Below, in pieces: positions 14,301 to 16,560 of a stretch of DNA of 64,000 nucleotides (positions within the stretch are counted from its first letter, which is position 1; each line of letters begins with the position of its first letter). Made by a program: the position numbers. Source of the stretch: Octopus sinensis (lineage: Eukaryota); the NCBI RefSeq assembly GCF_006345805.1, contig NC_042997.1, positions 20,770,001-20,834,000 of the forward strand, in the 5' to 3' direction.

Positions 14301-16515
14301 ATTAATCTTCATTAAACTTCAGCAGAAAAATATTTTGATGTATTTTTTACTACATTTAGTTACCTTATTTTTACATATTTGCATTGCTTTGGCTTAGGTA
14401 AATCATGGAGGAAGCTGCTGGATGGGTTTCTAGCTGGGTACAAATAGGAGAAAGAAAATCTTCCTTATATCACACTCCACCTTTTTCTAATATAGACACA
14501 AGGCCTGAGTTTCAGTGTGACAGGGTGGGATAGGGTGGGGGGGTTGGTCAATTAAATTCATCTCAGTGGATGAATGATACTTTTTAATTGACCCTGTGAG
14601 AGGAAAAGAAGATTTGATGTTGGTAGTATTTGAATTCAAAATACAAAAGGCTGGAAGAAAAACTGATTCCAAATTCTGGCATAAAGCCAACAATTTTGCA
14701 ATTACATCGTCCCCAGTGTTTAACAGGTACATGCTTTATGAAGGCAAAATTCAATCCCAGTGGAATTTGAACTGAGCATGAAGACGGATGGTATGCCACT
14801 AAACATTGTGTCCAGTATGTTAACAATTCTGCCAGCTGACCACATTTAAGGCTAGAAGAAATATTGCAAATCATTGTCAGACAAACCTAACCCAATATGA
14901 TCTCTATCTCTCTATCTCTCTTTCTCTCTATCTCTCTCTCACTCTTTCTACCTCTCTCTCTCTATGTAATTATCTTCAATACCAATGGGATGACCGGCCC
15001 CACACCATATGTTACTAAGGATGTGAATATGGCTACATCCCATGTTTATAAATATATTGGATCTGCCAGTACTTTTTTCAAACGAAACTTTCTTAACCAC
15101 TGGTCATTCTTCAGAGTCCCAGAAAAACGGTTAGTCATGTCCCTGGCCCGCCTTGTGTGGCACCTCAAAGATCAAGAGACCCTGTGTGATATAAGGGGGG
15201 AAATAATTGATTATCCAGGCCCATATATTAAAGGAAGTAGCTGTTGCAAAATCTGCATCGTAGAGAGAGCCAAAATTCTTAAGGTCTATACAAAACTTGG
15301 CATTTTAAATAGTCATTAAGAAGTGTTTTCTAAATGTGTCCACTTCAAGCACTACCTATTGGTAGCGTTTGCTGGTTAGGCCTTTTCAGGTCTATAAGGG
15401 TTATTTTATCCTCTGGTTCAACGGAGATAACCGGTTCTCATTAAAATCTTTTTGTTAAAATGTGTATCTCAATTTCTGAGCGTTTCCTCATGTCAACGAT
15501 GTAGAAATTTAAATTTTGTCTTTATATAGAGTCTGACGAGTTGTCCACAAGGCATCTATGCAAATGGCGGGCTTTTTCGAATTGCATTTCGATAACAACG
15601 TGCTTATTCGGAACAAAAATTCAGTACTGAATATACTCCGGTTAAATTTACAATTTAAAAATAGGATAAAATCTTTATGAGAATTTATCAAGTAGTTAGC
15701 GTGAAAAACCTCAAAAGAGAAAAAAGCCATCAATTTTTTCACTTAAATATATTTATTCATATTATATAGAGGGCATTACTATAGATAAATGCCACACGTT
15801 AGGAGGGACTCTTAAAGTCAAAACTACCAAAGTAAATAAACAGATCGTACCAATTTACATAGATGTATAAAGGGTGAACATTTCTATATGCTACGTTGGA
15901 TACATTGGTTGTTCGTCTGGTATGTTGATTTTGTTCATTTGTTATAAATCTTGAATTGTGCTTGCACTGATGATTAAAAAGTGCATTACTGCACTAATTA
16001 CGAAAACACGGTGATCTGCAGCTAAATTCAGTTTTTAAATGACTTGCTGCGAGAGTTGCATTCGGTACGATGTGTTTATTTATTTTGGTAGTTTTGACTT
16101 TAAGAATCCCTCCTAGTGCGTGGCATTTATGCATAGTAATGCCCTCTATATAATTTAAATAAATATATTTAAGTGAAAAAAATGGTGGATTTTTTTCTCT
16201 TATGAAGTTTTTCACGCTAACTACTTGATAAATCATTATAAAGATTTTATCCTATTTTAAAATTATATATATATGTATGTATATATGCATATATTTATAT
16301 ATTATTTATATATATATTTATACTTTATTTAAAGCAGCAGAAAATTCAACAAAACCTGTTACTCTGAGTTTCACGTTGCCGTTCGTCGGACAGTTTTTAC
16401 TCAGAGTAACAGGTTTTGTTGAATTTTCTGCTGCTTTAAATAAAGCATATTACTCTACCACTGTTATTTGAGTACTCTTTTTTTCCACCTTGTTTCACAT
16501 TTATGTGTTTACTCC

Positions 16516-16560
<45 letters not shown>

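What the first reader, a model, noticed from the sequence alone, without database searches (positions are those of the whole stretch)
16323..16517. Second, independently formed copy of the fold-back HHR mini-element
Seen: same family as 61816-61991, 45 kb away and in opposite orientation. The inversion junction differs (47-bp arms that include stem III), yet the short arm ends at the same base (aaataaag|ta) in both copies. Each copy's two arms share a private variant (ttcaacaaaa here, ttctacaaaa there). Inference: both arms were copied from one template at each insertion, with a fixed end point for the short arm and a variable junction. That fits PLE retrotransposition better than cut-and-paste MITE movement.
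Basis: partly seen in the sequence, partly recalled or inferred. Interest (0 to 1): 0.75.

Follow-up and report, generated by a model that had tools for sequence, protein, structure and literature searches.

The report
Fold-back hammerhead-like retroelement, second copy
This is a real second copy of a roughly 190-base mobile element built like a tiny Penelope-type retrotransposon insertion, interesting mainly as a small natural record of how such elements integrate, and otherwise ordinary repeat DNA.

Summary
16323-16517 and 61816-61991 are the only two copies in the window. They lie in opposite orientation and are 171/176 identical, plus one 19-nt gap. Each has perfect arms (47/47 and 37/37), the same two outer ends, and one base change mirrored in both arms.

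The stretch between the arms matches a type-I hammerhead exactly in geometry but has C where the core needs U4. Rfam does not call it, but it also misses a canonical hammerhead in this window.

Both copies sit inside (TA)n, have no terminal inverted repeats, and read as two 5'-truncated copies joined head to head, one 72 nt longer. An unrelated 2.2-kb composite at 30038-32272 shows the same plan with a canonical hammerhead. This fits published Penelope-like element (PLE) insertion signatures, not a MITE.

"Independently formed" is not shown. The junction difference is equally a 19-nt deletion between CTGT repeats. The mirrored arm change (chance 0.008) favours co-templated arms, but selection or conversion could also explain it. 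No eukaryotic collection was available, so the genome-wide test was not run. I call it a new member of a known kind, of modest interest.

The parts
16323..16398 (-). Copy 1, short copy (76 nt), read on the minus strand. It holds 9 nt of native helix-I 5' strand (16398-16390), core C3-A9 with C at position 4 (16389-16383), helix II 3 bp plus a GCAA loop (16382-16373), GAA (16372-16370), a palindromic helix III plus the cleavage-site base (16369-16360), then 37 nt ending ...AAATAAAG at 16323.
   Evidence: Sequence. My descriptor hit on the minus strand at 16360-16389 with 1 core mismatch. The native helix I pairs 8 of 9 with one A/G mismatch.
16399..16517 (+). Copy 1, long copy (119 nt), read on the plus strand. 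It starts inside helix III, runs through the 37 nt shared with the short copy (paired part 16399-16445), and continues 72 nt further (16446-16517) to ...CTCCGG.
   Evidence: Inverted repeat I1 and the alignment to copy 2.
16264..16322 (.). TA-rich tract flanking copy 1 on the short-arm side.
   Evidence: Tandem Repeats Finder row 16264-16322, period 2; flank print-out.
16518..16740 (.). (TA)n tract flanking copy 1 on the long-arm side.
   Evidence: Tandem Repeats Finder row 16518-16740; flank print-out.
61816..61924 (-). Copy 2, long copy (109 nt), read on the minus strand. It starts at the base just 3' of the predicted cleavage site and ends ...CTCCGG at 61816. The paired part is 61888-61924.
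61925..61991 (+). Copy 2, short copy (67 nt). It holds the 30-nt hammerhead-like core C3..H17 (61925-61954) and 37 nt ending ...AAATAAAG at 61991. The junction is ambiguous by 4 nt (CTGT, 61921-61924).
   Evidence: Descriptor hit on the plus strand at 61925-61954 with 1 core mismatch; gap placement.
61776..61815 (.). (TA)n tract flanking copy 2 on the long-arm side.
61992..62013 (.). (TA)n tract flanking copy 2 on the short-arm side.
30038..32272 (.). Unrelated ORF-less composite with the same plan, used as in-window context. It has head-to-head arms (30029-30539 versus 31685-32198, 97.7% over 518), a partial tandem (30285-30697 and 30906-31318, 90%), and a canonical type-I hammerhead motif near each outer end (30135-30169 minus, 32062-32096 plus). 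Both ends lie in (TA)n, and only the right arm has an extension of about 65-85 nt.

Best explanation
The locus is a non-autonomous retroelement insertion of the Penelope-like (PLE) / retrozyme kind.

What it is made of: two 5'-truncated copies of the 3' end of a hammerhead-bearing template, joined head to head inside a (TA)n microsatellite.
- One copy runs to the distal end (...CTCCGG).
- The other copy stops 72 nt earlier (...AAATAAAG).
- The junction lies in the hammerhead-like motif, in helix III in this copy and at helix I / the cleavage site in the copy at 61816-61991.

How it most likely works (inferred): a PLE reverse transcriptase/GIY-YIG protein supplied from elsewhere cuts both strands of the AT-rich target. 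It starts cDNA synthesis at two fixed internal sites of the template RNA, one on each target strand. The two antisense cDNAs are then joined where they can pair, and the self-complementary hammerhead helices offer that microhomology.

Under this model both arms come from one source RNA at each insertion, which would explain why each copy's arms are perfect and share a private variant. I favour this co-templating over an inherited fixed hairpin, but only slightly.

Shown: the anatomy, the (TA)n setting, the lack of TIRs, the hammerhead geometry, and the mirrored variant.
Inferred: the enzyme, two-strand priming, joining at the helices, and independent formation.

The core has C at position 4 and is probably a poor or dead ribozyme. 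That expectation rests on recalled mutational work, not on a call.
For: 1. Head-to-head anatomy with identical outer ends in both copies and a one-sided 72-nt extension.
2. (TA)n on both sides of both copies, and of the third hammerhead element, while pure (TA)>=4 runs cover 2.2% of the window.
3. No TIRs.
4. Hammerhead geometry. The 30 nt between copy 2's arms are exactly C3..H17 with no spare base. Copy 1 keeps a native, imperfect helix I (8/9), which the fold-back cannot have produced. My descriptor finds 4 loci in the window against a mean of 0.08 (max 1) in 50 dinucleotide shuffles.
5. An unrelated composite in the same window has a canonical hammerhead, head-to-head arms, a partial tandem, (TA)n ends and a one-sided extension.
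6. The mirrored arm change has P = 0.008 by chance. P is about 0.09 that neither copy carries an arm mismatch if the 5 differences were neutral post-insertion changes.
7. Published PLE features, from passages read:
- inverted 5'-truncated copy, one-sided tail and (TA)n bias (PMC8557442);
- inverted pLTR, tail on one of them, palindromes and microhomology at junctions (PMC3846280);
- both target strands cleaved and extended, AT-rich preference, two internal RT start sites that define the tail, and hammerhead cleavage dispensable in vitro (PMC11167929);
- retrozymes argued to be non-autonomous PLE derivatives (preprint 10.64898/2026.07.22.740005, abstract and section 14).
Against: - Only two copies exist here, so there is no distribution of junctions.
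- The junction difference is equally one 19-nt deletion between CTGT repeats.
- No reverse transcriptase, GIY-YIG or transposase domain turned up in any of the 123 ORFs of 70 aa or more that I scanned. That is 123 of 152; 29 low-complexity ORFs were dropped beforehand.
- No linear parent of the element is in the window.
- The core departs from the consensus at U4 (C in both copies) and at 10.1-11.1 (A-T, where G-C is described as highly conserved; PMC4209133).
- No Rfam hammerhead family matched, at gathering score or at E<=10. This is weak evidence, because the same search also missed the canonical motif.
- The one-sided extension is 72 nt, not the published 30-40 bp.
- The two hammerhead families in the window share no detectable 3' sequence: 300 of 2000 and 2238 of 5000 shuffles score as well. 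Nothing therefore ties them to one enzyme.
Confidence: 0.5

Rival explanations
1. A fixed-structure short retroposon: a solo retrozyme-like or SINE-like unit of about 195 nt. Its long hairpin belongs to a master copy and is inherited whole. It is still PLE/retrozyme-related and (TA)n-targeted, but the fold-back arose once. Copy 2 is then a 19-nt microhomology deletion derivative. The mirrored arm change is a compensatory pair kept by selection on the hairpin, or an arm-to-arm conversion.
For: Both outer ends are identical in both copies, and the rest of the structure is shared at 171/176. The only structural difference is a single gap bounded by CTGT on both sides, with 5 equivalent placements. 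The hairpin is extremely stable and could be a selected feature. This model needs one fold-back event rather than two ending at the same base.
Against: It needs a 19-nt deletion placed exactly at the hairpin apex, plus a double substitution on one arm pair (P = 0.008 if neutral), plus no arm decay in either copy (P about 0.09). ARAGORN finds no tRNA-like part. The units are solo, not the tandem arrays that define metazoan retrozymes (PMC7229834).
Confidence: 0.33
2. A cut-and-paste DNA transposon derivative (a TA-targeting MITE or fold-back element) moved by a transposase.
For: It is short and has an internal inverted repeat. TA lies on both sides and could be read as a TA duplication.
Against: The termini are not inverted repeats of each other: 9/30 in register, a run of 1 from the tips, and 919 and 1150 of 2000 shuffles score as well. 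The inverted repeat is internal and asymmetric, with a 72-nt overhang on one side only. The flanks are long (TA)n tracts, not a dinucleotide duplication. No transposase domain appears in the window's ORFs.
Confidence: 0.05
3. Not a mobile element as such: a hairpin RNA gene (microRNA-like precursor), or a chance palindrome that was duplicated.
For: At E<=10 the hairpin matches many Rfam microRNA precursor models.
Against: These matches occur on both strands and score 27-44 bits against gathering scores of 54-195 for the higher-scoring matches (those of about 27 bits and above). That is generic long-hairpin behaviour, and nothing passes gathering. The two copies sit at unrelated loci, each inside (TA)n, with sharp shared ends. 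That is insertion behaviour.
Confidence: 0.04

Closest known systems
Endonuclease-positive Penelope-like element insertions (Penelope/Poseidon, Neptune, Naiad): pseudo-LTR units with an adjacent inverted 5'-truncated copy and an optional one-sided 'tail'
   Same: Head-to-head inverted 5'-truncated copies; fixed outer ends with an extension on one side only; a junction at self-complementary sequence with microhomology; insertion into AT-rich or (TA)n DNA so that no TSD can be read; a hammerhead-type motif near the 3' end (PMC8557442, PMC3846280, PMC11167929, passages read).
   Different: No ORF or pseudo-LTR pair; the whole insertion is 176-195 nt. The extension is 72 nt, not 30-40 bp. The core has C at position 4. 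No partner PLE was found in the window.
Metazoan non-LTR retrozymes (tandem repeats of about 170-400 nt with type-I hammerheads, expressed as circular RNAs; argued in a 2026 preprint to be non-autonomous PLE derivatives)
   Same: Size range, low GC, type-I hammerhead topology with a short palindromic helix III, and no coding capacity (PMC7229834 and PMC4209133 passages; preprint abstract and section 14).
   Different: Both copies are solo, not tandem. They are fold-backs, which the passages I read do not describe for retrozymes. No loop-loop contacts are evident.
The 2.2-kb hammerhead composite in the same window (30038-32272)
   Same: Head-to-head arms, (TA)n at both ends, a one-sided extension, and a hammerhead motif pointing outward near each end.
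   Different: A canonical core with 0 mismatches; ten times larger; has a partial tandem; no detectable sequence similarity to the mini-element.
TA-targeting MITEs (Stowaway-like derivatives of Tc1/mariner elements; named from recall)
   Same: Short, non-coding, with TA at both borders.
   Different: No terminal inverted repeats. The inverted repeat is internal and asymmetric.

Membership tests
Hammerhead ribozyme, type I | Core strand C3-U4-G5-A6-N7-G8-A9 | tested here: not met
   Both copies have C at position 4. The other five fixed positions match, and the one difference between the copies in the core falls on the free position N7.
Hammerhead ribozyme, type I | G12-A13-A14, the A15.1-U16.1 pair and a non-G base at the cleavage site | tested here: met
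   Descriptor hits at 61925-61954 (+) and 16360-16389 (-).
Hammerhead ribozyme, type I | Three helices meeting at the core in type-I order, with helix I formed by sequence 5' of C3 and 3' of the cleavage site | tested here: met
   Helix II is 3 bp plus a 4-nt loop. Helix III is 3 bp plus a 3-nt loop within a 9-nt palindrome. Helix I is 8/9 native in copy 1 and a perfect 37 bp in copy 2 (the descriptor, which allows G-T pairs, extended it to 42 into the flank). There are 4 loci in the window against 0.08 expected.
Hammerhead ribozyme, type I | G10.1-C11.1 pair at the base of helix II (described as highly conserved in PMC4209133) | tested here: not met
   The pair is A-T in both copies (paper passage).
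Hammerhead ribozyme, type I | Score above threshold with the curated Rfam hammerhead models | tested here: inconclusive
   No hammerhead family matched at gathering or at E<=10. The same search also missed the window's canonical motif at 32062-32096.
Hammerhead ribozyme, type I | Self-cleavage | not testable with these tools
   This needs in vitro transcription. Minimum-free-energy folding does not recover the junction even for the canonical motif.
Penelope-like element insertion (non-autonomous derivative) | Telomerase-like reverse transcriptase with GIY-YIG endonuclease, in the element or as a partner in the genome | tested here: not met
   0 of the 123 ORFs of 70 aa or more that I scanned carry such a domain; 29 of 152 were dropped as low complexity. 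The rest of the genome could not be searched.
Penelope-like element insertion (non-autonomous derivative) | Inverted 5'-truncated copy abutting a sense copy head to head | tested here: met
   The 5' ends abut at 16398|16399 and at 61924|61925, and the 3' ends face outward.
Penelope-like element insertion (non-autonomous derivative) | Optional one-sided extension ('tail', 30-40 bp) set by two reverse-transcription start sites | tested here: inconclusive
   A one-sided extension is present in both copies, but it is 72 nt long. The start sites cannot be tested.
Penelope-like element insertion (non-autonomous derivative) | Insertion bias for AT-rich DNA or (TA)n microsatellites | tested here: met
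   2 of 2 copies, and the third hammerhead element, lie within (TA)n, which covers 2.2% of the window.
Penelope-like element insertion (non-autonomous derivative) | Variable 5' truncation or junction among independent insertions | tested here: inconclusive
   The two junctions differ, but by a single 19-nt gap with CTGT microhomology that a deletion explains equally well. n = 2.
Metazoan non-LTR retrozyme | Head-to-tail tandem repeats, each unit carrying a type-I hammerhead | tested here: not met
   Both copies are solo. No tandem array of this unit appears in the Tandem Repeats Finder or blastn output.
MITE (DNA transposon derivative) | Terminal inverted repeats | tested here: not met
   9/30 identical in register, a run of 1 from the tips, local score not above shuffles.
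MITE (DNA transposon derivative) | Fixed-length target site duplication | tested here: inconclusive
   The flanks are (TA)n on both sides, so any duplication is unreadable.
tRNA-derived SINE | tRNA-like 5' part | tested here: not met
   ARAGORN finds 0 genes in the window.

The most novel reading that the evidence does not exclude
Each copy is a fossil of a two-ended integration event. A dimeric PLE enzyme primed cDNA on both strands of a (TA)n target, from two start sites 72 nt apart on RNAs from the same source. The self-complementary hammerhead helices (helix I in one copy, the palindromic helix III region in the other) served as the place where the two antisense cDNAs were joined. On this reading the hammerhead fold in PLEs matters for building the inverted junction, not for cleavage. 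Mini fold-backs like this one would be the simplest natural read-out of that step.
Probability: 0.2. Interest if true: 0.65.

Novelty: new member of a known kind. Interest (0 to 1): 0.35.

Why it matters
The way PLEs integrate, and why they carry hammerheads, is still open. The 2024 in vitro study (PMC11167929, passages read) found two-strand cleavage and internal RT starts, and found that ribozyme cleavage is dispensable.

A family of insertions under 200 nt that consists of little more than the two cDNA ends and their junction would let one read start sites and junction rules directly from a genome. That requires many copies. With only the two copies here, the finding is a tidy example of a known insertion style, plus an annotation point: such loci look like microRNA hairpins or MITEs to generic tools.

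Tried and rejected
- Rfam. There were 0 matches at gathering over the window. At E<=10 there were 41 and 37 matches over the two copies, none a hammerhead family; they included generic hairpin hits on both strands and all were below gathering. I rejected this as evidence either way after the control region with a canonical motif also gave no hammerhead hit (2 matches, neither a hammerhead).
- Minimum-free-energy folding. It gives the long hairpin but no three-way junction, and fails on the canonical motif too, so it says nothing about the ribozyme.
- More copies. blastn with 7-nt words found nothing else in the window. An exact 36-nt scan of the prokaryotic genome-contig collection gave 0 hits.
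- A partner enzyme. Pfam on 123 of 152 ORFs of 70 aa or more (29 low-complexity ORFs dropped) gave only two sub-threshold hits, Capsid_N and DRL_cat.
- tRNA-like parts. ARAGORN found 0.
- Shared 3' module. By eye the two hammerhead families in the window seemed to share one, but the alignment score is not above shuffles (300/2000 and 2238/5000), so I dropped the idea.
- Segmental duplication. The flanks share only an unrelated dispersed repeat at other positions, so I rejected it.
- Helitron. By eye the ends do not fit the 5'-TC / CTRR-3' rule as I recall it, and the hairpin is at the wrong end. I made no call for this.
- Effect of C at core position 4. A term search of the review PMC6155905 for six core-related terms returned passages that say nothing on it, so the expected loss of activity rests on recall.
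- Literature. The listings showed no paper describing sub-200-nt fold-back hammerhead elements. These were term searches of the held library only. I opened no supplements, and the Repbase-type consensus files in the supplements of PMC8557442 could hold a relative.
- Source organism. Not identified. GC is 33.2% and there are no N.

Full report
**What is there**

The window is AT-rich (33.2% GC), has no N and is full of (TA)n tracts. The stretch 16323-16517 is one of exactly two copies of a short repeat. blastn with 7-nt words finds the second copy at 61816-61991 on the other strand and nothing else.

With a single 19-nt gap the two copies are identical at 171 of 176 positions. Outside the elements and their TA flanks, the 1.5-kb surroundings share only copies of an unrelated dispersed repeat, at other positions and orientations. 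These are therefore separate insertions, not a duplicated segment.

All four hold.
- Arms: copy 1 has perfect 47-nt arms (16323-16369 / 16399-16445) around 29 nt. Copy 2 has perfect 37-nt arms (61888-61924 / 61955-61991) around 30 nt.
- Extra 10 nt: the additional paired bases in copy 1 cover the helix III and cleavage-site stretch.
- Ends: both copies end ...AAATAAAG next to TA on the short-arm side and ...CTCCGG next to TA on the other side.
- Private variant: the one arm difference between the copies is mirrored in both arms of each copy (16348/16420 versus 61913/61966).

The hairpins are far more stable than shuffles (z -18.1 and -14.1, 0 of 200).

**Is the centre a hammerhead?**

In copy 2 the 30 nt between the arms are, base for base, positions C3 to H17 of a type-I hammerhead:
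- a 7-nt core strand;
- a 3-bp helix II with a GCAA loop;
- GAA;
- a 3-bp helix III inside a 9-nt palindrome;
- a non-G cleavage-site base.
The arms take the place of helix I.

In copy 1 the 9 nt just 5' of the core pair 8 of 9 with the 9 nt just 3' of the cleavage site. This imperfect, native helix I cannot be a product of the fold-back, so it is independent support for a hammerhead origin.

My descriptor allowed at most 1 core mismatch and required helix I of at least 4 bp. It finds 4 loci in the window against a mean of 0.08 (max 1) in 50 dinucleotide shuffles.

Against full membership:
- both copies have C at core position 4;
- both have an A-T pair at 10.1-11.1, where G-C is described as highly conserved (PMC4209133, passages);
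- no Rfam hammerhead model matches.

The Rfam result carries little weight, because the same search also missed a zero-mismatch motif in this window. I call the centre hammerhead-derived and probably catalytically weak. The expected effect of C at position 4 is recalled, not tested.

**Anatomy read as copies of one template**

Take the hammerhead strand as sense. Each locus is then two copies of one template, joined 5' end to 5' end.

| | Short copy | Long copy |
|---|---|---|
| Copy 1 | 16398 down to 16323 | 16399 up to 16517 |
| Copy 2 | 61925 up to 61991 | 61924 down to 61816 |
| Content | the core plus 37 nt | starts within or just after the core, has the same 37 nt, then 72 nt more |

So the 3' ends face outward and are fixed. 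One end is extended, and the junction sits in the ribozyme helices.

**Context in the same window**

The descriptor also found two identical zero-mismatch hammerhead motifs, at 30135-30169 (-) and 32062-32096 (+). They belong to an ORF-less 2.2-kb composite with these features:
- head-to-head arms (97.7% over 518 nt);
- a 90% partial tandem;
- (TA)n at both ends;
- an extension of about 65-85 nt on the right arm only.

It has no detectable sequence similarity to the mini-element. All three hammerhead-type insertions lie in (TA)n, although pure (TA)>=4 runs cover only 2.2% of the window.

**Comparison with what is known**

From passages I read:
- PLE insertions are 5'-truncated, often in partial tandem, often with an inverted 5'-truncated copy alongside. 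They have a 30-40-bp tail at one end, and (TA)n bias in Naiads makes TSDs unreadable (PMC8557442).
- Rotifer Penelope copies have an inverted pLTR, a 31-bp tail on one of the inverted pLTRs, and palindromes and microhomology at junctions, read as self-priming (PMC3846280).
- A purified Poseidon protein cleaves and extends both target strands, prefers AT-rich DNA, and starts reverse transcription at two internal RNA sites whose spacing is the tail. It does not need hammerhead cleavage in vitro (PMC11167929).
- Metazoan type-I hammerheads have short palindromic helix III and sit in tandem retrozymes (PMC4209133, PMC7229834). A 2026 preprint argues that these derive from PLE pLTRs (abstract and section 14).

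The mini-element matches the PLE insertion plan in four respects: head-to-head copies, a one-sided extension, a (TA)n target, and a hammerhead-type motif near the 3' end.

It differs in having no ORF or pLTR pair, a 72-nt extension, and a non-consensus core. It is not a MITE, because the termini are not inverted repeats. It is not a tRNA-derived SINE by ARAGORN. It is not a tandem retrozyme array. The window contains no reverse transcriptase, GIY-YIG or transposase domain in 123 scanned ORFs, so any partner lies elsewhere.

**Independent formation or descent?**

- The junction difference is one 19-nt gap with 5 equivalent placements, because CTGT bounds it. A microhomology deletion from a copy-1-like ancestor fits as well as two template switches.
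- Identical ends are expected under either view.

In favour of arms being templated together at each insertion:
- The chance that 2 of 5 random substitutions hit both sides of one arm pair and restore pairing is 0.008.
- If the five differences were neutral post-insertion changes, the chance that neither copy has an arm mismatch is about 0.09.

Selection on the hairpin or arm-to-arm conversion would mimic both of these. I put co-templated, independently formed fold-backs at about 0.5 and an inherited fixed hairpin at about 0.33. PLE/retrozyme-type retrotransposition as a whole stands at about 0.8.

**Mechanism proposed (inference)**

1. A PLE enzyme supplied in trans nicks both strands of a (TA)n tract.
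2. It primes cDNA at ...CTCCGG on one strand and at ...AAATAAAG on the other.
3. The two antisense cDNAs are joined where hammerhead helices give self-complementarity. In copy 2 this is CTGT against ACAG of helix I. In copy 1 it is next to the helix III palindrome.

**What stayed unchecked**

- The source organism is unknown.
- No supplements were opened.

**Verdict**

The retrotransposon reading is supported over the MITE reading. Independent formation is open. This is a new member of a known kind, of modest interest (0.35).

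Noticed in passing
window 30038-32272: An ORF-less 2.2-kb composite. It has head-to-head arms (97.7% over 518 nt), a 90% partial tandem of about 413 nt at 619-621-nt spacing, and identical zero-mismatch type-I hammerhead motifs at 30135-30169 (-) and 32062-32096 (+). (TA)n lies at both ends, and the right arm alone has an extension of about 65-85 nt. It looks like a non-autonomous PLE-type insertion.
   Followed up: partly
window 8200-8543, 8909-9225, 17357-17697, 24983-25189, 38897-39097, 48314-48561, 49099-49343, 50532-50878, 59263-59577, 62196-62457: A dispersed repeat of about 200-350 nt, with at least ten copies in both orientations at 75-88% identity. 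Some copies have an internal tandem of about 65 nt (8173-8377, 59498-59653). One copy lies 0.8 kb from copy 1 and another 0.2 kb from copy 2. It was not classified.
   Followed up: no
window 15643-15851 and 16064-16273: A second inverted-repeat structure (arms of about 210 nt, 86-90% complementary, 212 nt between them) that abuts the TA-rich tract on the short-arm side of copy 1. Just outside its left arm lies an 8-nt string identical to the mini-element's long-arm terminus, which may be chance.
   Followed up: partly
window 20442-21254: A 387-nt unit repeated 2.1 times at 98% identity, bounded by and containing (TG)n runs.
   Followed up: no
window 45804-46235: A 205-nt unit repeated 2.1 times at 95% identity.
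   Followed up: no
window 28539-28775 and 29412-29648: A 237-nt direct repeat at 99% identity, 873 nt apart, just upstream of the hammerhead composite.
   Followed up: no
window 40090-40362 (-): A 91-aa open frame with a sub-threshold Pfam match to the large-DNA-virus major capsid N-terminal domain (Capsid_N, E 7.8e-4, 19.5 bits against a cut-off of 24). The best solved-structure match is a capsid protein at E 0.24. The frame is surrounded by stops, so this is probably chance or a very decayed relic.
   Followed up: partly
window 3835-4059 (+): A 75-aa open frame with a sub-threshold Pfam match to DRL_cat (E 0.0025, 18.3 bits against a cut-off of 27). It was not pursued.
   Followed up: no
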